The notes under the pieces were generated by a model. That model did no database searches. It saw only the letters and a program-made list of their open reading frames with translations, and was not told the origin of the DNA. A program made the translations under genes and the position numbers. From an uncultured bacterium (lineage in GTDB: Bacteria > Krumholzibacteriota > Krumholzibacteriia > JACNKJ01): 64,000 nt of DNA. Every line of letters begins with the position of its first letter. Positions within the stretch are counted from its first letter, which is position 1. The stretch lies in contig CAYFNT010000019.1 in assembly GCA_964344565.1 (NCBI GenBank), forward strand, positions 6,196 to 70,195. The letters run 5' to 3'. This document shows positions 25,286 through 45,494 of the stretch, one piece after another.

Positions 25286-25380
25286 GCGGATCCCCCGATT
25301 CCACTCTCCATCGCCGAAAGTAAATCGCGAGGCTCGTTCACCGAGTCCGTGCTAAAATGTCTGTGGATGGGAAAAGGGGG

Positions 25381-26829: not shown

Positions 26830-26908
26830 TGATTGCTTGATCCTATTCCAGCCTGGGTCTAGTGTCTGATCCACCTCGTTGTGAAGACTCGCAATCCGGA
26901 GGATCAGG

Positions 26909-28267
26909 ATGAAGAGAATCGCCCTGCTCGCAGCAGGCTCCATCGCGCTCTCATTTCACCCCCTTCGCGCCGAGATCATCTCGGTTCCCGGCGACCATCC
27001 CACCATCGCGGAGGCCCTGACGGCCGCCGTCTACGGCGACGAGATCGTCATCGCTGCCGGCACCTATCCGGAGGGCGGCCTCTCGCTGAAAACGGGCGTC
27101 ATCATCCGCGGCGCGACGGGCAACTACACCCACGTGATCGTCGACGGCGAAGACGCCCAAACGGTCTTCTTCGCCGAGGGCGTCGACGGCTCCGCGGAAC
27201 TGCGAGATCTCACGGTGACCGGCGGGTCCGGAGCCAACGGCGGCGGACTGCGCTGCTGGGTCGCATCGCCGACCATCGCCAACTGTCGATTCCAGGGGAA
27301 CGCCGCCGACAACGGGGGCGCCATGGCCATCCAGCTGGGGTCCTCTCCGTCGATCACGAATTGCCGCTTCGAGAGCAATCAGGCCACATGCTGCGAGGGC
27401 GGGGCGCTCTATATCGAGAACAACAGCTCGGTCCAGATCTCCGGCTGCGACTTCGAGGGGAACATCGGCCGCAACGGAGGCGGTATCCACGTGCAGACCA
27501 CAGACCTCACCCTCGTGGATTGCCTCTTCGAAGTGAACACGGCGACCTTCAATGGGGGCGGCGTCAACGCCGGCACGGGCAGCAGCTGCGTTCTCATCGA
27601 CTGCGTGTTCCAAGAGAACGGGGCCGGCGTCGGCGGCGGGGCCGTGGCGAGGGCCGTGGCGACCCTGGGCGATATCACCGACTGCTTCTTCGAGGGAAAC
27701 ACGGCGGACTACGGCGGTGCGCTCTTCTGCCGGAACGTCGTGTTCAACGTGACCGGCTGCCAGTTCCTGGGGAACATCGCCGCGCCGGGCTACGACGGCT
27801 ATGGGGGCGCGGTCTTCTGCGAGTCCAATGCCGATCCCTTATTCGAGAACTGCACCTTCTACGCCAACTCGGCGGTGGAAGGAGGCGCGCTCTACGCGGA
27901 ATCCAACTGCAGCCCCGGATTCACGAACTGCATCATCGCCTTCGGCGCTGGAGGGGGAGCGGTGGCCTGCGAGAGCGGCCTGCGGACGATACTGCTGGAC
28001 TGCTGCGACCTCTTCGGCAACGTCGGTGGCGACTGGACCGGCTGCATCGCCGGACAAGACGGCGGCACGAACTTCTCGGCCGATCCGCTGTTCTGCCCGA
28101 CGCCGCCGTCCAGCCTGTGGCTGCAGACCGGGTCGCCCTGCCTGCCGGGGAATCATCCCAATGCGGAAGACTGCGGACTCATCGGCGCACTGGGCGAGGA
28201 CGCCGACTGCGACGGGCAGCCTGTCAGCGCCGTGGAGACCTGGAGCACCTTGAAGAGGATGTACTGA
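26909..28267 (+). CDS. Secreted right-handed parallel beta-helix protein, paralog 2, with the C-terminal TWSTLKRMY tail
   Basis: GGAGG RBS and signal peptide MKRIALLAAGSIALSFHPLRA. Repeats and C-terminal Cys-rich region like paralog 1. Ends in ETWSTLKRMY. Confidence 0.75.
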   Translation: MKRIALLAAGSIALSFHPLRAEIISVPGDHPTIAEALTAAVYGDEIVIAAGTYPEGGLSLKTGVIIRGATGNYTHVIVDGEDAQTVFFAEGVDGSAELRDLTVTGGSGANGGGLRCWVASPTIANCRFQGNAADNGGAMAIQLGSSPSITNCRFESNQATCCEGGALYIENNSSVQISGCDFEGNIGRNGGGIHVQTTDLTLVDCLFEVNTATFNGGGVNAGTGSSCVLIDCVFQENGAGVGGGAVARAVATLGDITDCFFEGNTADYGGALFCRNVVFNVTGCQFLGNIAAPGYDGYGGAVFCESNADPLFENCTFYANSAVEGGALYAESNCSPGFTNCIIAFGAGGGAVACESGLRTILLDCCDLFGNVGGDWTGCIAGQDGGTNFSADPLFCPTPPSSLWLQTGSPCLPGNHPNAEDCGLIGALGEDADCDGQPVSAVETWSTLKRMY

Positions 28268-30550: not shown

Positions 30551-30880
30551 ATGCCCAAATTGCCGCGGTCCGACGCCGCACTTCAGGCCCTGGCGCAGCG
30601 ATTCAAGCTGCTTGCCGAACCTGTCCGTCTGAGGATCCTCGAGATCCTGGCGGAGGGGGAGAAGTCCGTCCAGGAAGTCACCGCCGCCTCGGGCCTGCGC
30701 CAACCGCACATTTCCCGCCAACTTGCGATACTCGCCGAATCCGGCGTCCTCCTTCGACGTAAGGAGGGGACTCGCGTATACTACTCGCTCAGCGATTCCC
30801 ATATTTCCGCGCTTCTGGACGCTGCCGGCCGCTCGCTCCGCGAGCACCTCACCGGGCGTCTGGAGCAACTGGAGGAATGA
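30551..30880 (+). CDS. ArsR/SmtB family transcriptional regulator
   Basis: LLAEPVRLRILEILAEGEKSVQEV...SRQLAILAESGVL winged HTH, 109 aa. The stop overlaps the start of the M16 peptidase gene (ATGA). Confidence 0.85.
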   Translation: MPKLPRSDAALQALAQRFKLLAEPVRLRILEILAEGEKSVQEVTAASGLRQPHISRQLAILAESGVLLRRKEGTRVYYSLSDSHISALLDAAGRSLREHLTGRLEQLEE

Positions 30881-33800
30881 TGAAGAACCCTCTGATTCCC
30901 GTTATCGTCGTCCTGGTCGTCCTCGCCATGTTCATGTTGGTGTTCAAGTCCGGCGGGGATGGGCTGGAGAGCCTCGAGCATGGCCAGGTCATCCACGGTT
31001 TCGCCGTGGAGAATCTTTACGTGGACGGTGCCGATCGGGCCATGGGCGCGCGCTTCATCTCCGAGGAGAAGGGCTTCATCGTCGACCTGCTTCAGATCCA
31101 GTCGGTGCCCCAGGGATTCATCTGGGTGAAGAGTCCGCCGGATTCCGATCGCGGCGAACCCCACGCCTGCGAGCATCTGCTTCTGGGCAAGGGTCGTCAG
31201 GGACGCTACGTGGCGGCGCTGGAGGCCATGACCCTCGGCAACGCCAGCGCCTGGACCGCGCAGACCAACACGGTCTACCACTTCAACACCCTGGGCGGTG
31301 AGGAGAACTTCTTCGCCACCTTCGAGGCGCGGCTGAACGCCCTGGTGAATCCCGATTTCACCGACGAGGAGATTCGCCGCGAGATCGTCCATCTCAGCGT
31401 GGTGGAGGATGCCGGCGGCGAGTTGGGCCTCGAAGAGAAGGGTTCGGTCTACACCGAGATGGTGAGCAGTTTCGAGGGACCGGGCTATCCGCTCTGGGGC
31501 GGCGTGGGCGACATGCTCTTCGGCAAGGACCATCCCCTGGCCAACAGCTCCGGCGGACATCCCGACTCCATGCGCAGCATGACACCCGAGCACATGCGCG
31601 ACTTCGTGGCGGATACCTACCGGCTTCCGAACATGGGCATCATCGTGTCGGTGCCCAGAAGCTTCGAGATGGAGGATCTGCTCGAGGAGTTCGAAGGCAT
31701 CCTCGATCGCGTGCAGCCGGGCAAGCTCGAGAGCGATTTCGTAGGCATGAACGCCCTGAACCTTCCCCCGATCACCGACGCCGATCCCGAAGGCGCCGTG
31801 CGCATCGCCGCCTACCCCAGCGACAATCCCGAAGATCCCGGGGAGGTGCTCGTGGTCTGGCCGCCTCGGGATCCTCTGGCGAACTTCGACCGCTTCATGC
31901 TGGAGACCTTCCTGGACGGTTTCGCGGGCGGCCCCGGCACCGAGCTTTACGACCTCTTCATCAATTCCGAAACACGAAAGGTGGAGCTGGGAGCCAGCGC
32001 CGTATGGAGCTACGTGCCCGAGGAGCCCGGCTCGCCGGTCTTCTTCGGCCTGGACGGCCTGGACAACCGCAACATCGAGGGACGCAGCCTGCGGAGGGCG
32101 CGGGGGCTCATCGTGGAGGAACTGCACAAGCTCTACGAATTGGAATCGGGTTCGGAGGAGCTGGACGACTTCAACGATCGCGTGTCCAGCAATCTCGTGC
32201 AGACCCGCAAGTACCTCGAGCGCGCCTTGAATTCGCCGCCCCAGTTCGGCTTCCGCATGAGCGGCATGGCCAGACGCTGGCAGGACATCATGGCCTTCCT
32301 CGAGCTGGACGAGGGATTCCGCAAATCCCTGGTCATGGACTCGCATTTCGTCCGGGCCGAGGAACTCCTCGCCGGCGATGAGAACTTCTGGCAAGAGCTG
32401 CTGGATCGCTGGGGCCTGCTCGATGCGACGCCATACGTCATGGCGGTGCATCCGGATCCCGGCATGCTGTCGGCGGCCGAGGAGGCCAAGCGGGCCCGTC
32501 TGTCCGCGGCCATCGAGGGGATGAAGGACCGATTCGACGAGGATGAGGCCCAGGTTGCCCTGGCCAGGTTCCGCGATGAGTTCGATGCGAACACGGCCGA
32601 ACTCGAGGCCATCGCCGCCGAGGAGACCCTTCCCGGATTCATGGACGATCCGCCCATGGAGATTGACGAGCAGCTCCGGTACGAGACCGTGGCACTTCCG
32701 GGCGGGGCTGAGATGGTGGCCGCCACCTTCGAGAACATGAGCACTGCGACCCTGCAGGTCAGTTTCGGCCTTCAGGCCGTACCCAGCGACAAGCTCGTCT
32801 ACCTGCCCCTGCTGCCCTACCTCATGCGTGGCGTGGGCGTGGAACTGGACGGCGAGCGCATCGAGTACGACGACATGGAGAAGCGTCTGCGCGCGGAGCT
32901 CCTGTCCTACCGGGCCGACCTGACCACCAATCCCGAGACCGGCCGCGCCGAGTTGGTGTTCAGCTTCGGCGCCAGCAAGCCCGACGAGATCGATCGCGGT
33001 TTCGAGTGGATGCGCGCCTCGCTCACCGCGCCGCTGCTCGACGGGGACAACCTGTCCCGCATCGGCGACCTGCTCGACCAGCGCCTGCACCGCATGCGTA
33101 CGCGCATGCAGGGCAGCGAGGAATCCTGGGTGAGCGATCCGGCCGCGGCCTATCGCTACCAGGACGATCTCCTCTATCTCAGCGCGGGATCCTTCCTCAC
33201 CCAGACCCATCAGCTGCTTCGACTCAAGTGGCGCTTCACCGAGCCCGACGGCGAGGGCGAAGCGTATCTGGACGAGCTCGAGCGGCGCGGCCGCGACGCC
33301 TCGCGCGAAGAACTCTTGGCCCTGCTCGACGGAGCGCCGGAGGAAGGCATCCGGGCGGACCTCGCCTCCTCCCTTCGGTCGAGTCTCCCGGCTCTGCCCG
33401 ACGCCTCGATATCCGATGATTGGGCGCGGCTCTGCGCCACACTGCGCAGCGAGCTGGCCACGCCGCCGGATCAGGCCTTCACCGACCTGCGCGCTTTGCT
33501 GGACCTGTTGGCCCGCGCCGAGAATGCCCGCCTGTCCCTGGTGTCCAACTCCCGGGATCGCGGCGAGAAGCTCGGCGTCATCGAAGCCTTCCTGGCGGAC
33601 TTCTCCGGCAAGGGGGCGCCGGCCGCACAGAAACACCACCGTCGGGACTACGTGCTGGATCGCTATCGCGAGCGCAGCGGCATGACGGACAAGCCGATCT
33701 ACGCGGGACTCGTGAATGAGAACACGCGCAACGGCACCCTCATCTTCTCAGCCCGCATGGCCGAAGCCTGGCAGGCCGACCGCGAGTCGGCCCTCAACGC

Positions 33801-34377
33801 CCTGACCGGCCGGCTCTTCGGCGGCGGCGGCGGGCACGGTTTCTTCATGCGCACCTGGGCCGCCGGCCTGGCCTACAGCAACGGATTCGGCTATCGCGAA
33901 AACACGGGCATGACCACCTACTACGCGGAGCGTTGCCCGGACGTGGCCGAAACCATGCGCTTCGTGGTGGGGGTGCTCGAGGACACGGAGCTGGACGCCA
34001 GCTTCAAGGACTATTCCATCGCCGGCATGTTCGGACGCTCCCGCGCCGCCGCAGGCTACGAATCCCGCGGGCAGGCCATGGCCGCCGACCTCACGGACGG
34101 TTTCGGGCCGGAGCGCGTCCGAGACTTCCGCGGACAGGTCATGGATCTGCGCGGATGGGGCGAACTCCTGCCCGACATGCAGTCCCGCCTGGATGCAGTC
34201 TACGGCAGCGTGCTCATCGGCTACGGCGAACCATTGTCCGAGAGTCGCGACGGCGTCTTCTTCCTCATCGGTCCCGAGCCTCAATTCGAATCCTTGGAGA
34301 CCTACATCGCCACGGTTGAAGAGCCGCAGGCCGTGCATCGACTCTATCCCCGTGACTTCTGGCTCGTGGACCTGTAG
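30877..34377 (+). CDS. Large membrane-anchored M16-family (pitrilysin/insulinase-like) zinc metallopeptidase
   Basis: Inverted zincin motif HACEH (HxxEH) followed by NASAWTAQTNTVYHFN and downstream Glu residues. N-terminal signal-anchor MMKNPLIPVIVVLVVLAMFMLVF. 1166 aa. Confidence 0.75.
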   Translation: MMKNPLIPVIVVLVVLAMFMLVFKSGGDGLESLEHGQVIHGFAVENLYVDGADRAMGARFISEEKGFIVDLLQIQSVPQGFIWVKSPPDSDRGEPHACEHLLLGKGRQGRYVAALEAMTLGNASAWTAQTNTVYHFNTLGGEENFFATFEARLNALVNPDFTDEEIRREIVHLSVVEDAGGELGLEEKGSVYTEMVSSFEGPGYPLWGGVGDMLFGKDHPLANSSGGHPDSMRSMTPEHMRDFVADTYRLPNMGIIVSVPRSFEMEDLLEEFEGILDRVQPGKLESDFVGMNALNLPPITDADPEGAVRIAAYPSDNPEDPGEVLVVWPPRDPLANFDRFMLETFLDGFAGGPGTELYDLFINSETRKVELGASAVWSYVPEEPGSPVFFGLDGLDNRNIEGRSLRRARGLIVEELHKLYELESGSEELDDFNDRVSSNLVQTRKYLERALNSPPQFGFRMSGMARRWQDIMAFLELDEGFRKSLVMDSHFVRAEELLAGDENFWQELLDRWGLLDATPYVMAVHPDPGMLSAAEEAKRARLSAAIEGMKDRFDEDEAQVALARFRDEFDANTAELEAIAAEETLPGFMDDPPMEIDEQLRYETVALPGGAEMVAATFENMSTATLQVSFGLQAVPSDKLVYLPLLPYLMRGVGVELDGERIEYDDMEKRLRAELLSYRADLTTNPETGRAELVFSFGASKPDEIDRGFEWMRASLTAPLLDGDNLSRIGDLLDQRLHRMRTRMQGSEESWVSDPAAAYRYQDDLLYLSAGSFLTQTHQLLRLKWRFTEPDGEGEAYLDELERRGRDASREELLALLDGAPEEGIRADLASSLRSSLPALPDASISDDWARLCATLRSELATPPDQAFTDLRALLDLLARAENARLSLVSNSRDRGEKLGVIEAFLADFSGKGAPAAQKHHRRDYVLDRYRERSGMTDKPIYAGLVNENTRNGTLIFSARMAEAWQADRESALNALTGRLFGGGGGHGFFMRTWAAGLAYSNGFGYRENTGMTTYYAERCPDVAETMRFVVGVLEDTELDASFKDYSIAGMFGRSRAAAGYESRGQAMAADLTDGFGPERVRDFRGQVMDLRGWGELLPDMQSRLDAVYGSVLIGYGEPLSESRDGVFFLIGPEPQFESLETYIATVEEPQAVHRLYPRDFWLVDL

Positions 34378-34410
34378 CGAGATCGGCAAAGCGGATCGAT
34401 TTATCTGTTG

Positions 34411-34445
34411 ATGGGCGCCGTCTGAGCACGGCGCCCATTTTCTTG
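34411..34445 (+). terminator. Rho-independent terminator after the M16 peptidase gene
   Basis: atgggcgccg-tctgagca-cggcgcccat, a perfect 10-bp stem followed by TTTTCTT. Confidence 0.75.
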
Positions 34446-34510
34446 GAGGAAACTCTCGAAGGTCGAAGAGACTTGAGTCACAATCCGCTATCACGAGGAG
34501 GAGATTCTCC

Positions 34511-34969
34511 ATGATAACTCGGATTCTCGATGTTCTCGTTTCCCGACTCAACGAACACCTTCAATCCGAGTTGGGATTGCCTTCGAATCTTGTCGGCCTC
34601 GCACCGCCGCCGAAAGACGGTTTGATGGAAAAGTCGGATCGCGTTGATCTGACATTTCTGAGCATCGAACCGGATCCGCATTCAAGGAACTCGGGGAGTT
34701 CGCCTGCTGCCTTGAATCTGGATGTGCGAGTGGCTTTCAGTTTTCACGGCGAATCCTACGGCGCGGCCCTCGATCTGGTGTATGCGGTTCTGGATTTCTT
34801 CCATCGGAACGTCGTTTTCGAAATCGATGCGCAGGAGACTTCCAACGGTCTGAGGGTGCAGGTCGAACAGCAGAGCCCATCGACCGAGGAAGTCAACTAT
34901 CCATACAGGGTCGTTTACCCAACCCCGGCTCCGCGACTCGACTACCGCATTCGAATCCAGGAGATGTAA
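34511..34969 (+). CDS. DUF4255-like protein (Afp16/Pvc16 N-terminal-domain-like component of contractile injection systems), tentative
   Basis: 152 aa and a GAGGAGG RBS. The start MITRILDVLVSRLNEHL resembles DUF4255 family starts. Sits immediately upstream of the sheath gene. Confidence 0.5.
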   Translation: MITRILDVLVSRLNEHLQSELGLPSNLVGLAPPPKDGLMEKSDRVDLTFLSIEPDPHSRNSGSSPAALNLDVRVAFSFHGESYGAALDLVYAVLDFFHRNVVFEIDAQETSNGLRVQVEQQSPSTEEVNYPYRVVYPTPAPRLDYRIRIQEM

Positions 34970-34975
34970 TCGAAG

Positions 34976-36445
34976 ATGGCACCCAAGAAGAGAACTGCTA
35001 GATCGCGTCGCCTGAAGACTCCCGGCGTTTATGTGGAGGAAGTTTCGTTCTCGGTGCCATCGGTGGCCGAAGTGGAAACCGCCGTTCCGGCGATCATGGG
35101 ATACGTGGAGAGGGCCGACGTACTTTTCGAACCCGTAGCAGTCAAGTCCATGGTGGAGTTCCGGGAGTTGTTCGGTGGGGAGGCGCCGCTTCGCATCGAC
35201 GAGGTGCGGGTGGATCAGAACCATGCCTTCGAGTCGGCGCGCATTCGCGCAGGATCTCATCTGCACGACAGCATCCGTCTCTTCTACGAAAATGGCGGCG
35301 GGGGCTGCTACGTGGTTCCGGTGGGGACCTACTCGGATCGCCCCGAACTGGAGCACTTCGAGCGCGGCCTCGCCCGTCTTGCGAAGGAGGATCGCGTCAC
35401 ACTGCTCCTCTTTCCCGACGCCGTGCTTCTGAGCAAGGATCTCTACGCGGTGCAGAAACTCGCCCTGAAGCAATGCGGCAAGCTCCAGGATCGTTTCGCG
35501 ATCCTCGATCTCCATGATATCCGGGAGATGCCCAGTCCTCTGGTCTCGGGTTTCCGATCGGAAATCGGGATCGAAAACCTGAAGTATGGAGCCGCCTACC
35601 TTCCTCACCTCGAGTACCCGTCCGGACGATCCCTACGCTTCCGTGATTTGAAGGGAAAGCTGCGGCGAGGGGAAGAGTCGATGAGGATTGGCGATCTGAT
35701 CGAGGATCGCGAAGAGTTCCGCGAGCTTGCTCAGAAACTCGAAGGGCTCATCGATGAGTATCCAGACGGCTCACCCACGGCTGAGGAGAGCGAACTGGAG
35801 ACGGAACTGAGGGCCGTGTCGGCCAGGTTCGGGGCCCTGCTCGGCGAAATCGAGATGCTTCCGTCATTCGTTCCTCCGAGCGGAGCGGTGGCGGGCCTGT
35901 ACGCCTTGACGGACACCACGCAGGGCGTCTGGAAGGCCCCGGCGAATGTGGCCCTGGGAGGCATCACCGGAGTGGCATGTTCCATCGACAGTCACGATCA
36001 GGATAGCCTGAACGTGGATCCCGCATCCGGAAAGTCCATCAATGCGATCCGTCCCTTTATCGGAAAAGGTTGTCTGGTCTGGGGGGCGAGAACCCTGGCT
36101 GGAAACGACAACGAGTGGCGTTACGTGCCGGTTCGGCGCTTTGTCATCATGCTGGAGAAGTCCCTGAAGAAGTCGATCCAGTGGGCGGTCTTCGAGCCTA
36201 ACGATGCGAAGCTCTGGGTCAAGGTGAAGGGCATGATCGAGAACTTTCTCACCGTGAAATGGCGCGAGGGGGCCCTGATGGGCAGCATGCCGGAATATGC
36301 ATACTACGTCAAAGTCGGCCTGGGGCAGACCATGACCGAACTGGACATTCAAGAGGGCCGGCTGAACATCGAAGTGGGCTTCGCGCCGTTGAAGCCCGCC
36401 GAGTTCATCGTTCTGAAGTTCTCCCACAAGATGTTAGAGAGCTAG
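34976..36445 (+). CDS. Contractile phage-tail/eCIS sheath protein
   Basis: N-terminal KTPGVYVEEV. The C-terminal sheath domain shows GVWKAPANVALGGITGV, GCLVWGARTL, NEWRYVPVRRFVIMLEKSLKKSIQWAVFEPND and FLTVKWREGALMG, all hallmark Phage_sheath motifs. Confidence 0.85.
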   Translation: MAPKKRTARSRRLKTPGVYVEEVSFSVPSVAEVETAVPAIMGYVERADVLFEPVAVKSMVEFRELFGGEAPLRIDEVRVDQNHAFESARIRAGSHLHDSIRLFYENGGGGCYVVPVGTYSDRPELEHFERGLARLAKEDRVTLLLFPDAVLLSKDLYAVQKLALKQCGKLQDRFAILDLHDIREMPSPLVSGFRSEIGIENLKYGAAYLPHLEYPSGRSLRFRDLKGKLRRGEESMRIGDLIEDREEFRELAQKLEGLIDEYPDGSPTAEESELETELRAVSARFGALLGEIEMLPSFVPPSGAVAGLYALTDTTQGVWKAPANVALGGITGVACSIDSHDQDSLNVDPASGKSINAIRPFIGKGCLVWGARTLAGNDNEWRYVPVRRFVIMLEKSLKKSIQWAVFEPNDAKLWVKVKGMIENFLTVKWREGALMGSMPEYAYYVKVGLGQTMTELDIQEGRLNIEVGFAPLKPAEFIVLKFSHKMLES

Positions 36446-36453
36446 GGGGCGCC

Positions 36454-36882
36454 ATGGATCGCATGCCATTGCCGAAATTCCGTTTCCTGCTCAAGTGGGA
36501 GGAGTGTGCGATTTCCTTCAGCGAGGTGACGGGCCTCGACAGCGAAGTCGAAGCGGTCGAGTATCGGGGAGGCGGGGATCCCGAGTTTTCCCCGATCACG
36601 ATGCCTGGATTGCAGGAATTCTCGAACCTTACCCTGAAACGCGGATACGGTGAGGGTGGACCGCTCATAGACTGGATCAAGGAGATCCGAAGCAACGTGA
36701 TCAAGCGATATGCCATGACCATCCAGCTGCTGGACGAGGATTCCCGGCCCGCCATGACCTGGCAACTCACGAACGCCTTTCCGGTGAAGATCGAGGCCTC
36801 CGATTTGAACGCATCGGAAGGGGAATTCGCCATCGAAACGCTGGAGCTCGCTCACGAAGGAATCAGGATCAACACTCCCTGA
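36454..36882 (+). CDS. Contractile tail tube protein (T4 gp19/eCIS Cis1-like)
   Basis: KFRFLLKWEECAISFSEVTGLDSEVEAVEYRGGG...NLTLKRGY...IETLELAHEGIRIN matches the tail-tube family pattern. Start trimmed to MDRMPLP with an AGGGGG RBS. Confidence 0.8.
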   Translation: MDRMPLPKFRFLLKWEECAISFSEVTGLDSEVEAVEYRGGGDPEFSPITMPGLQEFSNLTLKRGYGEGGPLIDWIKEIRSNVIKRYAMTIQLLDEDSRPAMTWQLTNAFPVKIEASDLNASEGEFAIETLELAHEGIRINTP

Positions 36883-36935: not shown

Positions 36936-36965
36936 GGCCCGCTCCCGCGGGCCTTGACTTTCGGC
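36936..36965 (+). terminator. Hairpin ggcccgc-tccc-gcgggcc followed by TTGACTTTC. Weak terminator after the tube gene, overlapping the next promoter.
   Basis: Perfect 7-bp GC stem followed by a modest T tract. Confidence 0.35.
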
Positions 36966-36982
36966 AATAAAGAGCATATGTT
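36954..36982 (+). promoter_or_regulatory. Sigma70-like promoter TTGACT-17-TATGTT upstream of the DUF134 gene
   Basis: ccTTGACTttcggcaataaagagcaTATGTTcataat, about 20 nt before the ATG at 37004. Confidence 0.45.
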
Positions 36983-37003
36983 CATAATCGAAAGCGAGGA
37001 GCC

Positions 37004-37387
37004 ATGCCCCGTCCCCCCGTCGAAAAGACCATTCCCGCCGATCTCTCCGAGCGCGTCTTCAAGCCCCGCGGATTGCCGGCGAGCCGGGCCGAGCGCGTGG
37101 AACTGTCCCTGGACGGACTCGAGGCCCTGCGCCTGGTGGACCTCGAAGGGCTCTACCAGGAGGCCGCCGCCGAGCGCATGGGCGTTTCGCGGGCCACCCT
37201 GTCACGGGTCCTGGAAAAGGCGCGACGGGCGGTGGCCCTGGCACTCGTGGAGGAACGGATGCTCGTGGTGGAGGGCGGAGACGTGCGCCGCAGCAGGCGC
37301 AAGCGCTGGCCCTGTCCGGTCCACGGGCAAGGGCAGCGTCGCGGCCGAGGCTGCCGCTGCGGAGGAAGACATGGAAAGGAGGCCTAG
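37004..37387 (+). CDS. DUF134/UPF0251 family DNA-binding protein (sigma-70 region-4-like HTH)
   Basis: LSLDGLEALRLVDLEGLYQEAAAERMGVSRATLSRVLEKARRAVALALVE, a classic DUF134 signature. This family is often found next to NifX/NifB-like Fe-Mo cofactor-domain genes. Confidence 0.75.
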   Translation: MPRPPVEKTIPADLSERVFKPRGLPASRAERVELSLDGLEALRLVDLEGLYQEAAAERMGVSRATLSRVLEKARRAVALALVEERMLVVEGGDVRRSRRKRWPCPVHGQGQRRGRGCRCGGRHGKEA

Positions 37388-37498
37388 ATGCCTGGACGTG
37401 ACCGAAGCGGTCCCCAGGGCAAGGGGGCCCGAACCGGCAGGAGCGAAGGCTCCTGCGGCAGCGAGAATCTCATCATCTGGAATCGGAAGGACAGGAAA

Positions 37499-37939
37499 GT
37501 GACATCGAAGAAGCGCACCATCGCATTGCCCTGCGCCGGCGAAGGAGGCCTCGAGGGCCGGCTTAGCGACCATTTCGGACGCTGCCGAAACTTCACCCTC
37601 GTGGATATCGAAGACGGCGCCATTTCCGGACACCGGGTGATCGCGAACCCCCTGGCCGCGAATCATCCCCATGGACAGGCTCCCCGATTCATCGCCGAGC
37701 AGGGGGCCCAGGGCGTACTGGTCCGGGGCATCGGACATCGCGCCTGCGAGATCTTCGAGGAACTCGGCATCGAAGCTCGCCTCACCGATGCGGACACCGT
37801 CTCCGCGGCGGTCGACGAGCTCCTGGCCGGCAATTCGAAGAAGGTCGAGCCCTGTACGGGCGGGCATCAGGGGCGCGGTCACGGCCATGGCCACGGACAC
37901 GGTCGCCATCGAAATGCGAGATCGGGGAAACCCGAGTAG
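37499..37939 (+). CDS. Dinitrogenase FeMo-cofactor-binding-domain protein (NifX/NafY-like, PF02579-like) with a His-rich C-terminal tail
   Basis: IALPCAGEGGLEGRLSDHFGRCRNFTLVDIEDG motif. C-terminal HQGRGHGHGHGHGRHRN. GTG start at 37499 with an upstream purine-rich stretch preferred over the non-conserved ATG at 37388, which is the track start. Confidence 0.65.
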   Translation: MTSKKRTIALPCAGEGGLEGRLSDHFGRCRNFTLVDIEDGAISGHRVIANPLAANHPHGQAPRFIAEQGAQGVLVRGIGHRACEIFEELGIEARLTDADTVSAAVDELLAGNSKKVEPCTGGHQGRGHGHGHGHGRHRNARSGKPE

Positions 37940-38136
37940 CTCAATGCCGTAAGCGAGGGGCAATCGCAGCGCCCCTCGTGCTGCCCCTGCCCGATCCCGG
38001 TTCACAGCGAAGCCCGGGGTCGGGCTTTTCGATGCAAATCAAACCGCTCGTTTCGGGGAAGTGCCGCGTCGTTCGACTCGGCTTTTCCGTTGAAGATCAG
38101 CCCCGCGAGCGTCTATACAGGTCGTGGAGGTCCTCC

Positions 38137-40149
38137 TTGCCCACCTACCTCACCGCCTGTCCTAGAAACTGCTATAGCACCTGCACGCTTCGCGTGGAGC
38201 TCGAGGACGGGCGCCTCCGTCGAGTTGAACCTTTCGAAGGCAATCGCGCCACGCCCGAAGGGGCCTGCCTCAAAGGCCTCAGCTACGTCGAACGGGTTCA
38301 TTCGCCCGATCGCATTCTCCATCCACTCCGCAAGACGCCGGGTGGCTTCGAGCGAATCAGCTGGGAAGAAGCGCTGGGAACCATCAGTGAGAATCTGAAA
38401 CGCCTCCGCGCCGATCACGGTCCGAAGTCGCTCTTCTACTACGCGGCCAGCGGCACCAAGGGCATGCTGAACGGCGCCGGCATGGAGTTCTGGCGACGCT
38501 TCGGCGGCTGCACGACGATCTACGGAGACCTCTGCTGGCCCAGCGGTCTGGAGGCCACGCGACTCACCCTCGGCGAGAACAAGCACAACGTTCCCTGGGA
38601 TCTGGAGAACGCGCGGCTCATCGTGCTCTGGGGGAAGAATCCGGCGGAGACCAATGTCCACCAGATGCCCTTTGTCGAGAGAGCGCTGTCGGCGGGCGCT
38701 GAACTGGTCGTCGTGGATCCGCGGCGGACCGAATCGGCCGAGCGGGCGGGCATGCTCGTCCAACCCCGGCCGGGCACGGACGGCGCGCTGGCTCTTGCCG
38801 TGGCGAACTTGATCATCGATAGGGGTGGCGTCGATGAGCCCTTCGTGGCCGATCATGTTCTCGGCTTCGACCGCTTCGCGGAGCAGGTTGCTTCCTTCAG
38901 CCCCGATCGGGCGGCCCGGATCTGCGGAGTTTCCGTGGGGGAGATCGAACGGCTCGCCGAGCTCTTCGCCACGATACGTCCCGCGAGCATCAGCGCCGGT
39001 TTCGGCATGCAGCGATACAGCAACAGCGGACAGACCATGCGCGCACTGCTGTCCCTGCTCGCCATCACGGGCAACATCGGCAAGCCCGGCGCGGGATGGA
39101 TCTACGCCAACCTTCAGAGCCACATCTTCGGCGAGAAGGATCCCGTGGCCTCCTATCCACCCGAAGGCGTGGAAGGTCCGGTGCGGGTTTCCGTCTCAAC
39201 GGCCCGCCTGGGCGCGGACATGTTGGCCCAGCGCGATCCTCCATTGAAGGCGGCATGGGTGGAACGCGGCAACCCCATGAATCAGAATCCCGAGAGCGGC
39301 ACGGTGGCGCGGGCCTTCGAGGCGCTCGACTTCGTGGTGGTGGTGGAGCAGTTCCTCACCGATACGGCGCGGGCCGCGGATATCGTGCTTCCCGCAAAGA
39401 CCTTCCTCGAGCAGACCGACGTGATCACGGCCTACTGGCATCCCTACATCCAGCTCAAGCCCAAGGCGATGGATCCGCCTGGCGAGGTGAGGCCCGAAAC
39501 GGAGATCTATCGCGGTCTGGCCCGCTTGCTCCAGGTGGATCTGGCCGGGGCGATCCCCGGCGCCGACGAGATCGAGGGCTTTCTCGACGAGCGCCTCTCG
39601 CCCCACGGCCTGAGTTTGGCGCGGCTGCGCGAGGGTCCCCAGCTTCCTCCCGGGCATCAGGACATCGCCTTCGCGGACCTCGAGTTCGAAACGCCCAGCG
39701 GCAAGATCGAATTGCTTTCCAGGGAAGCCATCGAGCGCTGGGGATTGAGCGAACTGCCCGACTTCGCCGAGGCCACGGAGTCGGCGGGCAGCGCGAAGTT
39801 CCCGCTGCAGATGCTGACCCCCAACACGAAGAACCGCATCCATTCGCAGTTCGGTGATCTGAAGCTGATGAGAGCCCTCGAGCCCGAACTGCTTCTCACC
39901 ATGAATCCCGTCGATGCCGAAGAGCGGAGCATCGAGGATGGGGACCGCATTCGCGTGTTCAACGATCGCGGGGCCTTCGAATCCAGAGCGCGCTTGGGCT
40001 TCGGCATTCGCCGGGGATGCGTCTCGGCGCCCAACGGATGGTGGCGCGCGGCGGGAACCGTCAACGACTGTTCTGCGGGACGCGAGACCGACATGGGCCA
40101 CGGCGCGGCATTCCACGACAACTTCGTCGAAGTGGAGCCGCTGACATGA
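38137..40149 (+). CDS. Molybdopterin (bis-PGD) oxidoreductase catalytic subunit of the DMSO-reductase superfamily, no Tat signal
   Basis: N-terminal 4Fe-4S motif CPRNCYSTC...GAC and MopB-type domains throughout. No RRxFLK motif. TTG start 6 nt after GGAGG is preferred; the track ORF begins at 37978. Confidence 0.75.
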   Translation: MPTYLTACPRNCYSTCTLRVELEDGRLRRVEPFEGNRATPEGACLKGLSYVERVHSPDRILHPLRKTPGGFERISWEEALGTISENLKRLRADHGPKSLFYYAASGTKGMLNGAGMEFWRRFGGCTTIYGDLCWPSGLEATRLTLGENKHNVPWDLENARLIVLWGKNPAETNVHQMPFVERALSAGAELVVVDPRRTESAERAGMLVQPRPGTDGALALAVANLIIDRGGVDEPFVADHVLGFDRFAEQVASFSPDRAARICGVSVGEIERLAELFATIRPASISAGFGMQRYSNSGQTMRALLSLLAITGNIGKPGAGWIYANLQSHIFGEKDPVASYPPEGVEGPVRVSVSTARLGADMLAQRDPPLKAAWVERGNPMNQNPESGTVARAFEALDFVVVVEQFLTDTARAADIVLPAKTFLEQTDVITAYWHPYIQLKPKAMDPPGEVRPETEIYRGLARLLQVDLAGAIPGADEIEGFLDERLSPHGLSLARLREGPQLPPGHQDIAFADLEFETPSGKIELLSREAIERWGLSELPDFAEATESAGSAKFPLQMLTPNTKNRIHSQFGDLKLMRALEPELLLTMNPVDAEERSIEDGDRIRVFNDRGAFESRARLGFGIRRGCVSAPNGWWRAAGTVNDCSAGRETDMGHGAAFHDNFVEVEPLT

Positions 40150-41492
40150 GCCGTCCGGCGTTTCGCTTCGACCTGAATCGCTGCACGGGATGCGCCGCCT
40201 GCCAGGTGGCCTGCATCGTCGAGAACCGGTTGCCCTTCGACCGCAGTTGGAGGCAGGTTGTCGATGGCAATGCCGCCGGAAGGCCCGACGCGCCGGCCTT
40301 TCACCTGTCCCTGGCCTGCAATCACTGCGAGGACGCGGTGTGCATGAAGGCCTGCCCCGCCTTGGCGTATTCGCGGGATCCGGACACGGGCGCCGTGCTC
40401 ATCGACGCGGAGAAGTGCATGGGCTGCGCCTATTGCTCCTGGGTCTGTCCCTACGACGCGCCGAGCTACGATGAGGACGCCGGTCTCATGGAGAAATGCA
40501 CCTTCTGCTCGCCGGGTCTGCGCGAGGGGCAGGAGCCCGCCTGCGTGGCCTGGTGTCCCACGGGAGCCCTGGACATGGGGGAAACGCGGGAGGGATCGGA
40601 CGGCCAGGGCATACCCGGTTTCGCCGAGGCTGGCCTGGGGCCGGCCATGGAAATCAGCGGTCTAGCGGAAGGACGAGTCCTTCCCGACATGCGGCCGGAC
40701 CCCGAAGCCCAGGCACTCATCGATGCCATGGGCCTGCCCGCAGCGGCCGGGCCGAGGGGCTTCAGCCTGAAGAAGGAGTGGAGCCTCCTCCTCTTCACCT
40801 GGCTGGCGCCCGCCCTGGCGGGCAGCCTGATGGTGGCGCCTCAACTCGGCGAGAGATTGAATCCCTACCTCTTCGCAGGCGTCGGCATCGCGCTGATGCT
40901 TCTGGCCGCCATGCACCTGGGGCGAAAGGGTCGAGCCTGGCGGGCGATTCTCGGTTGGCGGAGCTCATGGCTCAGCCGGGAGATCATCCTCTGGCCGGCC
41001 TTCGTCGCCGCCGCGTTCATCTGCCTGATCTTCGATCTTCCTGCGCCATGGATCCTGCCGGCCTTGGTTCTGGGCGCCGCCTCGCTCTTGTCCATGGACG
41101 CGCTCTATTCGGCCATCGACGCGGGGCGCGGCCCGAAGGTCCACAGTGCATCGGTGCTGCTCAGCGGACTTCTCTACGCCGGTCTTCTGTCGGGGAGCCG
41201 CGGCATGGCCGGCGGGGTGCTGCTGGTGAAGCTCGTTCTCTACCTTCTGAAGAAGATCAGGGCTGTCGGCGAGGGTCATGCTCTGCGCCCTGGCCTGGCG
41301 CTGACGCGAGCCTTCTTCGGCTTTCTGATTCCCATCCTGGCCTTCTCGGCCATGGGCGCCTCGCTCATGGCCATGGTCCTCCCGGCCCTGCTCCTGGCCG
41401 AACTCGTCGATCGCACGGAGTTCTACTTGGACCTCGAGCTGGGCTCGCCAAGACGACAGATGGACCTCGACCTCGGGGAGAAATCCAACTAG
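40147..41492 (+). CDS. Four-cluster 4Fe-4S ferredoxin subunit (DmsB/PsrB-like) fused to a polytopic membrane anchor (DmsC/NrfD-like)
   Basis: Four Cys clusters (CTGCAACQVAC, CNHCEDAVCMKACP, CMGCAYCSWVCP, CTFCSP...CVAWCP) followed by about 6-8 hydrophobic helices. ATGA overlap with the catalytic subunit gene. Confidence 0.8.
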
Positions 41493-41718
41493 GTAATCCG
41501 AAACACTAGTCTGCTCGGCCACTACAGCGAGAATCTCTTGAGCAGCCTGTTCCTCGTGCCATCGGCCGATGGGAACTACGTAGACGGCATGGTGCTGGAG
41601 CGCCGACACGGAGTTCCGCGGTTGGCGCTGCAGGATTCCCTATCCCGTACCCCTCACGGAGATGATCTGGAGACTCAAACTTCCCGGTAAGTAATCCTCC
41701 GATTGTTTGCACGGGAAA

Positions 41719-43921: not shown

Positions 43922-45409
43922 CTACTTGATGAGCACGAGCCGGATGATCTCCGATCCCTCCCCGGCCCGGATGCGGCAGAAGTAGACGCCGCTGCTCCGG
44001 TCCCGGCCGAGCTCGTCGCGGCCGTTCCAGTCGAGAGTGATTCTCCCCGGGCCGGCATGCTCATCCAGAAGAGTCGCGACCCTGCGTCCGGAGATATCGA
44101 AGATCTCCACGACCGCATGGGCGGGTTCTTCGAGACCGAATTCGATACGCGTGCTCGGATTGAAGGGGTTCGGGGCGGCGCTTGCGGCGAATTCCTCGCG
44201 GTTCATCGATCCGCAGGCTCCCCAGGCTCCCATTAGGCCGCAATCGTTGTTGTCGGGCAGGCAGGGGGAGTCGGGTTGGAGGAAGGGACGATAGTCGAAG
44301 GTCGTGCAGATGAGCGGATCCTCGCAGATATTGCCGTCCACGCCGAGGAGCTCGAGGATCACCGGCGTCCAATCTCCGGCTGGGTTTCCGAAGAAGTTCG
44401 AACAGGAGATCAGCGGCGGATCGTCGAGCCAATACTGGTAGATGGCCTGTCCCTGGATCGATCCAGCGATCAGACACTTGTCGATCTCGACATAGGCCTC
44501 TTCGGTGATGCCGATGTTGCCGCCTCCGGATACGACATTGCCGAAGAAACTGCAGCTCTCGACGCGGTGCACTCCCAGATCCAGCAGAACCGTGCTGCCG
44601 CTGTATCCGTCGTTTGCGACGAACGTGCATCCCAGGAGAGTTCCCCGGCACTTGTTCAGACTGATCGCGTGTCCGCCAGCCCAACCGTAGTTGTCGTAGA
44701 AGATGCAGTCCTCGATCAGGAGTCTGCCGGAATCGTGGGCGGCCACGCCGCCTGCGTTGATCGTCCGGTTTCTCTCGAAGAGCGAAGCGCCTATCCGACC
44801 TCGACTGCCGCTCGTCACCGCCACGGTTCCCCAGCAGCCCTGTTGGTGGTGGCCGTTTTCGATGAATCGACAGTTCTGAATGTCGACATGCGAGTCGTTG
44901 ACGAAGCAGATGGCAGATCCGCCGGTACCCGCCCCGGCGATGTTGTTCATGAAGAGGGTATCCTCGATGCGGGGACGCGATTCGCTGAAGAAGAGGCCGC
45001 CGCCGGGGCTTTCGCTGCGGTTGTCGAAGATGACGCAGTTTCGAATCGTCAGTGAGGATTCAGTGAATCGGCCGGCGCCTCCGTGGAACTCGTCCGCGTG
45101 CGTGAAGGTGATTCCCTCGATGAGGGTGCTTCCGTCCAGGCCGACGCCTCGAATGCAGTAGCCTTTATCCATGGCGTCGACGGTGACGCATTCGGGATCG
45201 CCGGAACCGCTCCGCAGCGTGACGCCGCTTTTCATCTCGAGGTGGAATTCCTCGTAGATGCCGCAGGCCACCTGGACGGTGTCCCCCCGCTCGGCCAGTT
45301 CGATGCCGGCCTGGATGCTCGGCGCATCCGTTGGAACGTGGATGATCAGGGAGTTCGCCGGAACGGCGCAGAGCATCAGGATCGATAAACGAGTCAGGGT
45401 CTTTCGCAT
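43922..45409 (-). CDS. Secreted right-handed beta-helix protein, paralog 3, carrying a T9SS-type C-terminal sorting domain
   Basis: Signal peptide MRKTLTRLSILMLCAVPANS. PbH1-like repeats and a Cys-rich region homologous to the 25381 and 26909 proteins (NFFGNPAGDW...DSPCLPDNNDCGLMGAWG). C-terminus EIFDISGRRVATLLDEHAGPGRITLDWNGRD...GVYFCRIRAGEGSEIIRLVLIK is a T9SS CTD. Confidence 0.75.
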   Translation of the reverse strand: MRKTLTRLSILMLCAVPANSLIIHVPTDAPSIQAGIELAERGDTVQVACGIYEEFHLEMKSGVTLRSGSGDPECVTVDAMDKGYCIRGVGLDGSTLIEGITFTHADEFHGGAGRFTESSLTIRNCVIFDNRSESPGGGLFFSESRPRIEDTLFMNNIAGAGTGGSAICFVNDSHVDIQNCRFIENGHHQQGCWGTVAVTSGSRGRIGASLFERNRTINAGGVAAHDSGRLLIEDCIFYDNYGWAGGHAISLNKCRGTLLGCTFVANDGYSGSTVLLDLGVHRVESCSFFGNVVSGGGNIGITEEAYVEIDKCLIAGSIQGQAIYQYWLDDPPLISCSNFFGNPAGDWTPVILELLGVDGNICEDPLICTTFDYRPFLQPDSPCLPDNNDCGLMGAWGACGSMNREEFAASAAPNPFNPSTRIEFGLEEPAHAVVEIFDISGRRVATLLDEHAGPGRITLDWNGRDELGRDRSSGVYFCRIRAGEGSEIIRLVLIK

Positions 45410-45494
45410 TTCAACCGCCCTTTCCCACATCAGTCTGATTATGTAGCTATTCTAGCAGCTTCCTCCCTTCGGGTAAACCGGCCCAGTATTCAAT

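What the first reader, a model, noticed from the sequence alone, without database searches (positions are those of the whole stretch)
34511..36882. Isolated three-gene contractile-tail module (DUF4255-like, sheath, tube) without baseplate, spike, tape-measure or ATPase genes
Unambiguous tail sheath and tail tube genes are preceded by a DUF4255-like gene, which in eCIS loci corresponds to the Afp16/Pvc16 cap/terminator. The sheath carries KTPGVYVEE and the C-terminal motifs GVWKAPANV, LVWGARTL, NEWRYVPVRRF, QWAVFEPND and WREGALMG. The tube carries KFRFLLKW...VTGL...LTLKRGY...IETLELAHEGI. The trio is bounded by a strong terminator upstream (34411-34445) and by a hairpin plus new promoter downstream (36936-36982). 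The flanking genes (M16 peptidase, DUF134/NifX-like/Mo-oxidoreductase) are unrelated to phage or eCIS functions. No integrase, capsid, baseplate (gp25/gp27/gp6-like), VgrG/PAAR spike, tape-measure or AAA+ ClpV/Cis15 ATPase is present within 30 kb on either side. Either the remaining eCIS/T6SS-like components are encoded elsewhere, or this is a minimal sheath-tube-cap system with a non-injection role such as a contractile or polymerising filament.
Basis: partly seen in the sequence, partly recalled or inferred. Interest (0 to 1): 0.75.

Follow-up and report, generated by a model that had tools for sequence, protein, structure and literature searches.

The report
Stranded cap–sheath–tube injection-system remnant operon
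Three genes for the shaft of a phage-tail-like injection machine (end cap, contractile sheath, inner tube) sit alone in a Krumholzibacteriota chromosome, cut off from the baseplate and spike, yet selection has kept them intact in two diverged lineages.

Summary
Window 34511-36882 (+) carries a compact operon: a Pvc16_N/DUF4255 cap (152 aa), a sheath (489 aa) and a gp19-type tube (142 aa). A strong terminator lies upstream and a GC hairpin downstream. No other CIS or phage gene occurs in the 64 kb.

It is not an assembly truncation. A sister lineage (sheath 75% identical) has the same genes in the same synteny in independent assemblies. More distant relatives have no trio at this site.

The gene order matches the 5' end of about 70 related complete eCIS operons of the AlgoCIS/tCIS type: cap, (cap adaptor), sheath, tube, tube2, spike, baseplate. 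So the trio matches the stranded 5' part of such an operon.

Selection still acts. Pooled dN/dS is 0.29 and there are no stop codons, where neutral drift would give about 18-22. Substitutions avoid family-conserved columns. Constraint is nevertheless 3-6 times weaker than in complete loci. The proteins have lost unusually many invariant residues. The cap lacks the C-terminal extension that docks the cap adaptor, and the adaptor gene is absent.

Best reading: an eCIS-derived shaft-only module whose parts probably still self-assemble but cannot inject alone. Whether a baseplate is encoded elsewhere in the genome could not be tested. Moderate interest.

The parts
34410..34446 (+). Intrinsic terminator of the upstream M16-like gene; left boundary of the trio operon and of the insertion
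   Evidence: 12-bp GC-rich stem plus UUUUCUU, -23 kcal/mol, z=-3.9. An equivalent hairpin follows the M16-like gene in all five compared genomes, and sequence similarity to the trio-less relatives ends just after it.
34447..34510 (+). Conserved 5' leader or promoter region of the trio, with a Shine-Dalgarno-like GAGGAGGAG at 34495-34503
   Evidence: The M16-to-cap intergenic region is about 91% identical (by my count of the printed alignment) between the window and sister lineage L001, against about 80% in the coding sequence. No sigma-70 consensus promoter was found by the scan. Sequence read.
34511..34969 (+). Cap / tail-terminator protein (Cis16A/Alg16A-like, Pvc16_N domain only), 152 aa. 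It is shortened: no C-terminal extension and one internal loop missing.
   Evidence: Pfam PF14065 E=1.1e-8, above the gathering score. PDB DUF4255 chain 9r9n_B matches at E=0.026. A low-confidence model still ranks the CIS caps 7b5i_AA, 7adz_0A and 6j0f_A first. The alignment with 73 caps of related eCIS loci shows the missing ~22-26 C-terminal residues and a ~13-residue loop. dN/dS against L001 is 0.53.
34976..36445 (+). Contractile sheath protein (Cis2-type, short ~480-aa form), 489 aa
   Evidence: PF17482 is above cutoff. Matches to solved sheaths: All3325 6e-117, AlgoCIS 4e-107. dN/dS is 0.23 (CI 0.18-0.31) and there is no indel against L001. It keeps 88% of family-invariant residues, below all 81 relatives.
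36454..36882 (+). Main inner-tube protein (Cis1/Alg1-type), 142 aa
   Evidence: PF06841 E=1.2e-37. AlgoCIS Alg1 9e-39 and tCIS All3324 1.6e-35 match much better than the initiator-type tubes Alg5, Pvc5 and Afp5. dN/dS is 0.35.
36936..36953 (+). GC-rich hairpin after the tube gene (weak terminator), overlapping the promoter-like site of the DUF134 gene (36954-36982)
   Evidence: Scan result; fold -17.2 kcal/mol, z=-1.9. The stem is conserved in L001 with a different loop, and the following promoter-like stretch is about 95% identical (by my count of the printed alignment).
37004..37939 (+). DUF134 (HTH) and NifX-like genes. They were co-inserted with the trio relative to trio-less relatives. 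They are not CIS components; listed as context only.
   Evidence: Pfam PF02001 and PF02579. Both are present only in the window and L001 lineages. Their called-gene positions are filled otherwise in L095, L090 and L091, and a phmmer search found no homolog in any fetched locus outside the window and L001 lineages (L008, L001, L002). Junction mapped.

Best explanation
The trio is an eCIS-derived 'shaft-only' operon: cap, sheath and main tube. These are the first genes of a standard AlgoCIS/tCIS-type contractile-injection-system operon. They are now stranded, without cap adaptor, tube initiator, spike, baseplate, tape measure or ATPase.

It sits in a ~3.55-kb insertion, together with unrelated DUF134 and NifX-like genes. 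The insertion lies between the terminator of an M16-like gene and a Mo-oxidoreductase operon, in one lineage of Candidatus Krumholzibacteriota.

Shown:
- the identity of the three proteins;
- the absence of every other CIS gene from the 64 kb;
- presence in two diverged lineages and absence from more distant relatives;
- continuing purifying selection acting on the same positions that are conserved in canonical sheaths and tubes, but 3-6 times weaker than in complete loci;
- loss of the cap's adaptor-docking tail.

Inferred:
- the three proteins are still made from their own conserved promoter or leader region;
- they still self-assemble: tube hexamers stack, sheath polymerises on or around them, and the shortened cap closes the tube end but can no longer lock the sheath through an adaptor;
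- with no baseplate or spike encoded nearby, the product is not an injection device by itself. It serves a reduced or altered role, such as a polymerising shaft or filament.

The identity and evolutionary part is near certain. The stand-alone functional part is about 40% likely. The overall confidence reflects both.
For: Identity: Pfam and PDB matches.

Operon order: the complete relative L005 reads Pvc16_N, 361-aa protein, sheath, tube, tube, DUF5908, CIS_tube, VgrG, PAAR, gp25, baseplate. Nearly all of the 80 closest loci in GTDB representative genomes with enough flank carry that full set.

Isolation: the whole window was scanned.

Not an artefact: identical synteny in L001 and L002 (sister lineage, MAG GCA_964410395.1) and in L008 and L009.

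Insertion: relatives with a 72-78% identical M16 ortholog have M16|MoOx (L095), M16|DUF5916 (L090) or M16|CCG (L091) at the site. Junctions were mapped. GC3 of the trio is 0.55-0.77, against 0.82-0.85 for the adjacent M16-like gene, in both lineages.

Selection:
- dN/dS is 0.53, 0.23 and 0.35 for cap, sheath and tube, pooled 0.29 (CI 0.23-0.36). At most 0.65% of bootstrap replicates reached 1 for any of the three genes.
- There are no premature stops and only in-frame length differences.
- Neutral simulation gives P(no stop)=3e-4 at K=0.1 and 0 of 3000 at K>=0.2.
- Substitutions since the split avoid family-conserved columns: sheath 9% against 35%, p=2e-7; tube p=4e-3.
- By my count of the printed alignment, the upstream region is more conserved than the coding sequence.

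Relaxation or change:
- In 8 pairs of complete loci, sheath dN/dS is 0.04-0.08 (one pair 0.18) and tube 0-0.08.
- The trio keeps only 88%, 76% and 50% of family-invariant residues in sheath, tube and cap. Family medians are 98%, 98% and 100%.
- The sheath's distance to the rest of the family is 0.90, against a typical 0.68.

Cap: the C-terminal extension is missing. In AlgoCIS that terminus makes the 'handshake' with the cap adaptor Alg16B, and deleting Alg16B gives mis-assembled particles (PMC8894135). The adaptor-like gene of L005 matches tCIS All3326 and has no counterpart in the window.
Against: - The rest of the genome could not be searched, so a baseplate locus elsewhere is not excluded.
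- No expression or particle data exist.
- In characterised CIS and myophages, extended sheath-tube assembly is nucleated on a baseplate and tube initiator. A baseplate-free trio might therefore yield only contracted polysheath-like polymers, or nothing useful.
- Raised dN/dS, loss of invariant residues, foreign-looking codon usage and location in an indel hotspot are also what a slowly decaying relic would show.
- Only two lineages carry the trio, so the selection estimates rest on a single pairwise comparison.
Confidence: 0.5

Rival explanations
1. Trans-acting or paralogous shaft set. A complete CIS locus exists elsewhere in the genome, and the trio supplies extra or variant cap, sheath and tube subunits to its baseplate. 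This would be analogous to orphan hcp/vgrG islands of T6SS, or to the multiple sheath paralogs of Afp and PVC.
For: Purifying selection acts on the same positions as in canonical sheaths and tubes, which fits continued incorporation into a canonical particle. Relaxed constraint is typical of redundant paralogs. Multiple sheath genes per locus do occur in this family: L066 has four, and Afp2-4 and Pvc2-4 are solved structures. General knowledge: sheath-tube assembly normally needs a baseplate.
Against: Nearly all related complete loci with enough flank encode their own cap, sheath and tube next to the baseplate, and none is split after tube1. A second locus would therefore make the trio redundant. 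The trio cap has lost the tail that docks the cap adaptor, and all three proteins have diverged at otherwise invariant positions beyond any family member. Both argue against fitting a canonical partner set. No CIS gene lies within the 64 kb, nor among the genes called in about 10 kb on either side of the trio and around leuS in the sister MAG's contigs.
Confidence: 0.3
2. Non-functional relic. These are the leftover 5' genes of a deleted eCIS island, on their way to pseudogenisation, and the apparent constraint is residual.
For: - dN/dS is 3-6 times higher than in complete loci.
- Invariant residues have been lost.
- The cap is truncated and the adaptor is missing.
- Codon usage is atypical.
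- The site is prone to deletion: a MoOx 5' stub remains in L091.
- Isolated sheath genes also occur among housekeeping genes in L010 and L013, so CIS fragments do persist in genomes.
Against: The trio predates the split of two lineages that differ by dS 0.35-0.65, yet all 783 codons are open in both, with only in-frame length differences. Suppose long strong constraint were followed by recent neutrality. Reaching the observed dN/dS would then need about 0.1 neutral substitutions per site by my rough calculation, and at that divergence P(no stop) is about 3e-4. Substitutions avoid conserved columns, and by my count the 5' region is better conserved than the coding sequence.
Confidence: 0.12
3. 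Assembly artefact, or a prophage or tailocin cut by a contig end.
For: None found.
Against: The trio lies 34.5 kb and 27 kb from the window ends, among housekeeping genes. The identical arrangement was recovered in 7 and 11 contigs from several independent sequencing runs. No capsid, portal, terminase, integrase or fibre genes are present.
Confidence: 0.01

Closest known systems
AlgoCIS of Algoriphagus machipongonensis (clade Ib eCIS; PDB 7adz; PMC8894135)
   Same: Tube (Alg1, E=9e-39), sheath (E=4e-107) and a short single-domain cap of the Alg16A type. In related loci the cap gene lies upstream of the sheath and tube genes.
   Different: AlgoCIS has 18 genes, including cap adaptor Alg16B, tube initiator, spike, baseplate with cage, tape measure and ATPase. 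Here only three genes remain. The cap lacks the C-terminal extension that binds Alg16B. The sheath is the short ~480-aa form, not the 692-aa form.
Thylakoid-anchored CIS (tCIS) of Anabaena PCC 7120 (PDB 7b5h/7b5i; All3324, All3325, All3326)
   Same: It holds the closest solved sheath (All3325, 484 aa, E=6e-117), which is the same short form. The tube All3324 matches at 1.6e-35. The cap chain 7b5i_AA is the top fold match of the (low-confidence) cap model.
   Different: tCIS is a complete machine; its solved entries include a third tube-family protein (All3323) and the adaptor-like All3326, and by background knowledge a baseplate. None of these is encoded near the trio.
Afp / PVC (clade Ia eCIS; Afp16/Pvc16 caps)
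   Same: The cap shares the Pvc16_N domain. Sheath and tube are homologous (E about 1e-50 to 1e-60 and 1e-17 to 1e-19).
   Different: Afp16 and Pvc16 are about 295 aa, with a C-terminal domain that caps the sheath. The trio cap is 152 aa and has the N-domain only. Afp and PVC have three sheath paralogs and full baseplates.
Orphan hcp/vgrG/PAAR islands of T6SS (e.g. PMC13098142)
   Same: A subset of structural genes of a contractile machine is encoded away from any main cluster.
   Different: Those islands carry tube and spike genes with effectors and serve a complete T6SS elsewhere. Here the set is cap, sheath and tube with no effector, and no main cluster is known.
Solo sheath genes in L010 (OW818665.1) and L013 (Gallionellaceae MAG)
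   Same: Short eCIS-type sheath genes lie among housekeeping genes, with no baseplate within the ~10 kb of flank held.
   Different: Neither has a tube or cap next to the sheath. They keep 95% and 99% of family-invariant residues, against 88% for the trio sheath. L013 belongs to a separate clade with 100% bootstrap support.

Membership tests
Pvc16_N / DUF4255 cap (tail terminator) family, PF14065 | Match to the family HMM above Pfam's gathering score over most of the domain | tested here: met
   35.5 bits against a cutoff of 27, E=1.1e-8, profile positions 4-163 of 180. Weak support from PDB chain 9r9n_B (E=0.026) and from fold matches to 7b5i_AA, 7adz_0A and 6j0f_A with a poor model.
AlgoCIS/tCIS-type cap module (Alg16A plus cap adaptor Alg16B) | A cap with a C-terminal extension that 'handshakes' with the N-terminus of a cap adaptor encoded next to it | tested here: not met
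   The last ~22-26 residues present in all 73 caps of related eCIS loci are missing. No adaptor homolog is found in any frame of the window. The role of the extension is taken from PMC8894135.
CIS / myophage tail sheath (PF17482, PF04984) | Conserved C-terminal sheath domain, and full-length similarity to solved CIS sheaths | tested here: met
   PF17482 scores 42.8 bits against a cutoff of 26.9. PF04984 scores 25.7, below its cutoff of 31.4. All3325 matches at 6e-117 and 9r9h_T over residues 13-489 at 2.8e-96.
CIS main tube (Phage_T4_gp19, PF06841) | HMM match above the gathering score; closer to main-tube than to initiator-type tube proteins | tested here: met
   129 bits against a cutoff of 28.2. 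Alg1 matches at 9e-39, against the second AlgoCIS tube-family chain 7aeb_Y at 7e-18 and Pvc5 at 5e-13.
Extracellular contractile injection system (eCIS) locus, as defined in surveys | Linked core genes: sheath, tube, cap plus baseplate (gp25, Baseplate_J), spike (VgrG, PAAR) and AAA+ ATPase. Geller et al. require at least 4 linked genes with at least 3 different Pfams. | tested here: not met
   Only three CIS genes occur in the 64 kb. The criterion was read in PMC8213781.
Extracellular contractile injection system (eCIS) locus, as defined in surveys | Baseplate, spike and ATPase genes anywhere in the same genome | not testable with these tools
   The genome is not among the best 80 sheath matches kept from the GTDB-representative scan (best hit 48% identity). 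Other contigs of the MAGs cannot be fetched.
Type VI secretion system | Two-gene TssB/TssC sheath, Hcp tube, ClpV, TssJLM membrane complex | tested here: not met
   The sheath is a single-chain phage or eCIS type and the tube is gp19-type. No T6SS family was hit by any gene of the window.
Myovirus prophage or R-type tailocin | Sheath and tube accompanied by baseplate, fibres and tape measure (plus capsid, portal, terminase and integrase for a prophage) | tested here: not met
   None is present in the window. R-pyocin and T4 sheaths match only at E=7e-9 to 1e-4.
Known anti-phage defence systems (PADLOC-DB 2.0) | Match of any trio protein to a defence-system model | tested here: not met
   No hit for cap, sheath or tube at E<=0.01.

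The most novel reading that the evidence does not exclude
The trio is a self-sufficient, baseplate-free derivative of a contractile injection system. A sheath-tube polymer with a simplified tube-only cap would have been exapted in Krumholzibacteriota for a non-injection role, such as a cytoplasmic contractile or polymerising filament, and is kept by selection in the absence of any other CIS gene in the genome.
Probability: 0.2. Interest if true: 0.8.

Novelty: new variant of a known kind. Interest (0 to 1): 0.42.

Why it matters
Surveys of contractile injection systems call only near-complete loci; one of them requires at least four linked genes. Stranded fragments are therefore discarded and assumed to be junk.

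Here a fragment consisting exactly of the shaft proteins has stayed open and under purifying selection in two lineages that have since diverged by dS 0.35-0.65. It has also drifted away from the family consensus and lost the part of the cap that ties it to the rest of the machine.

If the genomes truly lack a baseplate, this would be a natural experiment on what a sheath, tube and cap can do on their own. It would also be a possible case of a phage-tail module being repurposed. If a baseplate locus exists elsewhere, it would be the first split eCIS among its relatives.

Either way, it is a cheap and well-defined target: one search of a MAG, plus co-expression of three small genes.

Tried and rejected
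The best hit was 48% identical. It gave family context but not the rest of the genome.
- Exact-sequence look-ups gave no organism names. The taxon was inferred from LeuRS homologs.
- A single-sequence AlphaFold model of the cap was poor (pLDDT 52.6). Its fold matches count only as weak support.
- The 151-aa ORF after the M16 gene in L094 looked like a third trio lineage, but it is unrelated to the cap.
- There are no flanking direct or inverted repeats, att-like sites or target duplications around the insertion. There is no tRNA and no Rfam family in the window.
- The trio has no PADLOC defence hit.
- No DUF134 or NifX homolog lies next to any of the 80 related eCIS loci, so those two genes are not a regular CIS accessory.
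- Literature searches found no description of an isolated cap-sheath-tube operon or of CIS in this phylum. Terms used: orphan sheath; DUF4255 with sheath and tube; Krumholzibacteriota with contractile.
- My first crude gene call placed spurious ORFs at 40496-41509 and 54637-55152. The real genes there are a Fer4_11 protein (40146-41492) and probably a minus-strand MoCF_biosynth gene.
- Sister-group placement of the trio sheath is unresolved: with solo sheath L010 45%, with complete locus L005 28%.
Full report
**1. What is there**

ORF listing and Pfam scans confirm three same-strand genes.
- 34511-34969: 152 aa, Pvc16_N/DUF4255, E=1.1e-8, above the gathering score.
- 34976-36445: 489 aa, Phage_sheath_1C, E=5.8e-11.
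- 36454-36882: 142 aa, Phage_T4_gp19, E=1.2e-37.

The genes are 6 and 8 nt apart, and each has an upstream purine- or G-rich Shine-Dalgarno-like stretch.

Upstream lies a 12-bp-stem intrinsic terminator followed by UUUUCUU (-23 kcal/mol, z=-3.9). It ends the preceding M16-like gene. Downstream lie a 7-bp GC hairpin and a promoter-like site for the next gene.

Against solved structures:
- The sheath is closest to All3325 of the Anabaena thylakoid-anchored CIS (E=6e-117) and to the AlgoCIS sheath.
- The tube is closest to the AlgoCIS main tube Alg1 (9e-39) and to All3324.
- The cap matches a DUF4255 chain weakly.
- A single-sequence model of the cap is poor (pLDDT 52.6). Even so, its three best fold matches are the caps of tCIS, AlgoCIS and PVC.

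**2. Surroundings**

I called genes by codon usage and scanned all of them against Pfam.

The window is ordinary chromosome. It holds Cys/Met and Thr biosynthesis genes, glutamine synthetase, a hybrid histidine kinase, glycosyltransferases, beta-helix surface proteins, a ClC channel, 2-oxoacid:ferredoxin oxidoreductase, ParA, MutY, LeuRS and thiolase.

I also ran a six-frame phmmer search with the proteins of a complete relative: cap adaptor, second tube, DUF5908, CIS_tube, VgrG, PAAR, gp25 and the 1371-aa baseplate protein. It hit nothing in the window except the sheath and the single tube. There is no tRNA, no Rfam family and no flanking repeat.

LeuRS homologs place the organism in Candidatus Krumholzibacteriota.

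**3. Not an assembly truncation**

The exact sheath protein occurs on 7 contigs from several runs. A 75%-identical ortholog (P0002) occurs on 11 contigs, including a 127-kb contig of MAG GCA_964410395.1. In both lineages the order is identical: ArsR, M16-like, cap, sheath, tube, DUF134, NifX-like, Mo-oxidoreductase, ferredoxin.

**4. Where it came from**

The next-closest short sheath (P0109, 51% identical) heads a complete eCIS locus. Its order is Pvc16_N, 361-aa protein, sheath, tube, tube, DUF5908, CIS_tube, VgrG, PAAR, gp25, large baseplate proteins.

Among the 80 closest loci in GTDB representative genomes, nearly all with enough flank carry that full set, with the cap upstream of the sheath. 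The trio therefore has the gene content and order of the 5' end of such an operon.

The 361-aa protein matches All3326 of the tCIS cap complex. It occupies the position of the AlgoCIS cap adaptor Alg16B.

Krumholzibacteriota relatives with 72-78% identical M16 orthologs lack the trio:
- L095 has M16 followed directly by the Mo-oxidoreductase.
- L090 has a DUF5916 gene at the site.
- L091 has lost the oxidoreductase as well, leaving about 35 codons of its 5' end.

Junction alignments show that the trio plus the DUF134 and NifX-like genes form a ~3.55-kb insertion. It lies between the M16 terminator and the conserved upstream region of the oxidoreductase. The trio has lower GC3 (0.55-0.77) than the adjacent M16-like gene (0.82-0.85) in both lineages. 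That fits foreign origin.

I cannot tell whether a whole eCIS island landed here and was then cut down, or whether only a fragment arrived.

**5. Is it alive?**

Between the two lineages, amino-acid identity is 70%, 75% and 73% for cap, sheath and tube. The flanking genes are 81-98% identical.

dN/dS values:
- cap 0.53 (CI 0.32-0.85);
- sheath 0.23 (CI 0.18-0.31);
- tube 0.35 (CI 0.21-0.58);
- pooled 0.29.

All 783 codons are open in both lineages, with only in-frame length differences of 1 and 2 codons.

In a neutral simulation the chance of no premature stop in the three ORFs is 3e-4 at 0.1 substitutions per site. It is 0 in 3000 at 0.2 or more. The observed synonymous divergence is 0.35-0.65.

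This also rejects a mixed history of long strong constraint followed by recent neutrality. By my rough calculation, that history would need about 0.1 neutral substitutions per site to reach the observed ratio.

Substitutions since the split avoid the columns most conserved across the family. For the sheath, 9% of such columns differ against 35% of variable ones (p=2e-7). For the tube p=4e-3, and for the cap p=0.06. By my count of the printed alignment, the non-coding region upstream of the cap gene is about 91% identical, more than the coding sequence at about 80%.

So the genes are maintained, and on the same structural positions that matter in canonical sheaths and tubes.

**6. Constraint is relaxed or shifted**

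In eight pairs of complete loci, sheath dN/dS is 0.04-0.08 (one pair 0.18), main tube 0-0.08, and cap 0.02-0.29.

The trio proteins keep only 88% (sheath), 76% (tube) and 42-50% (cap) of residues that are at least 90% conserved in the family. Family medians are 98%, 98% and 100%. The sheath value is below all 81 relatives. Many of these changes are shared by both lineages, so they predate the split. The sheath's mean distance to the family is 0.90, against a typical 0.68.

The cap lacks an internal loop and the whole C-terminal extension that every cap of a related locus has. In AlgoCIS that C-terminus pairs with the N-terminus of the cap adaptor to terminate the sheath. Deleting the adaptor gives mis-assembled particles (PMC8894135). 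With no adaptor gene and no docking tail, the trio cap can at best close the tube.

**7. Interpretation**

The best-supported reading is an eCIS-derived shaft-only operon, retained under weaker and partly altered constraint. Its proteins probably still polymerise as tube and sheath. Without a baseplate or spike encoded nearby, they cannot make an injection device by themselves.

Rivals:
- Paralog or trans-acting set. This is the main rival. A complete CIS encoded elsewhere would use these subunits. I could not test this, because the genome is not in the searchable representative set and other contigs cannot be fetched. Against it: no related complete locus is split, the cap has lost its adaptor interface, and all three proteins are outliers at invariant positions.
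- Pure relic. The open reading frames and the site pattern of substitutions make this unlikely.
- Assembly artefact. This is excluded.

**8. Comparison and novelty**

The proteins are members of the Pvc16_N, CIS sheath and gp19 tube families. The locus fails the definition of an eCIS, a T6SS, a prophage or a tailocin. One survey requires at least four linked genes (PMC8213781), so such fragments are filtered out by design.

I found no description of an isolated cap-sheath-tube operon under selection. PADLOC has no model for it.

Solo sheath genes among housekeeping genes also turned up in L010 and L013. They arose independently at least twice. CIS fragments in chromosomes may therefore be commoner than the surveys suggest.

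I rate this a new variant of a known kind, of moderate interest. Interest would rise sharply if the genomes prove to lack any baseplate.

Noticed in passing
L010:9962-11407 (OW818665.1, 3.2-Mb complete chromosome from a metagenome) and L013:836-2251 (Gallionellaceae MAG VIKH01000088.1): These are solo short-form eCIS sheath genes, 48% and 47% identical to the trio sheath. They sit among housekeeping genes (thioredoxin-reductase-like, chromate transporter, RnfD; glycerol-3-phosphate dehydrogenase). No tube, cap or baseplate lies within about 10 kb. They keep 95% and 99% of family-invariant residues and belong to different clades.
   Followed up: partly
L066:9953-21361 (Okeania sp. SIO3I5): Four tandem sheath genes of 470 to about 940 aa are followed by one tube gene. 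No baseplate gene was detected in the part of the locus that is held.
   Followed up: no
L091:11227-11420, compared with L095:5523-5820 and window 37940-38200: In a relative that lacks the Mo-oxidoreductase operon, its upstream region and about 35 codons of its 5' end survive right after the M16 terminator. This is a deletion scar. With the DUF5916 insertion in L090, it marks the site downstream of the M16-like gene as an indel hotspot.
   Followed up: partly
window 1781-3543 (+): Four tandem paralogous small lipoprotein-like ORFs (137, about 150, 138 and 147 aa). Each has a lipobox-like Cys, a shared EGD.I.V.T.DG..Y.G.V core and a C-terminal hydrophobic segment. They occupy the only low-GC stretch of the window (GC 0.555 against about 0.63) and have no Pfam hit.
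   Followed up: no
window 56282-56866 and 56886-57485 (-): Two adjacent paralogous secreted proteins (194 and 199 aa) share the motifs ILLDIDxDDDPYT and CIDCCGNPG. They have no Pfam match. Both are conserved in the sister lineage (L096).
   Followed up: no
window 36954-37003: The promoter-like region of the DUF134 gene (TTGACT-17-TATGTT, then CATAAT) is about 95% identical between the two lineages by my count of the printed alignment. The DUF134 protein is 97.6% identical (dN/dS 0.055). This is far more conserved than the co-inserted trio.
   Followed up: partly
window 30877-34377 (+): The 1166-aa 'M16 peptidase' reaches only a sub-threshold Pfam hit to the inactive M16_C domain (E=1.1e-3). 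It belongs to a large family of ~1170-1200-aa proteins; the few that carry a source name come from Krumholzibacteria, Zixibacteria, Eisenbacteria and Calditrichaeota. Most lack any Pfam annotation.
   Followed up: no
window 25357-28267 (+), 43922-45430 (-), 18683-20476 (-): Several secreted right-handed beta-helix (Chlam_PMP-repeat) proteins are present. One of them (43922-45430) and a non-beta-helix protein (18683-20476) also carry FlgD_ig-like C-terminal domains. The number of beta-helix genes at 25-28 kb differs between lineages.
   Followed up: no
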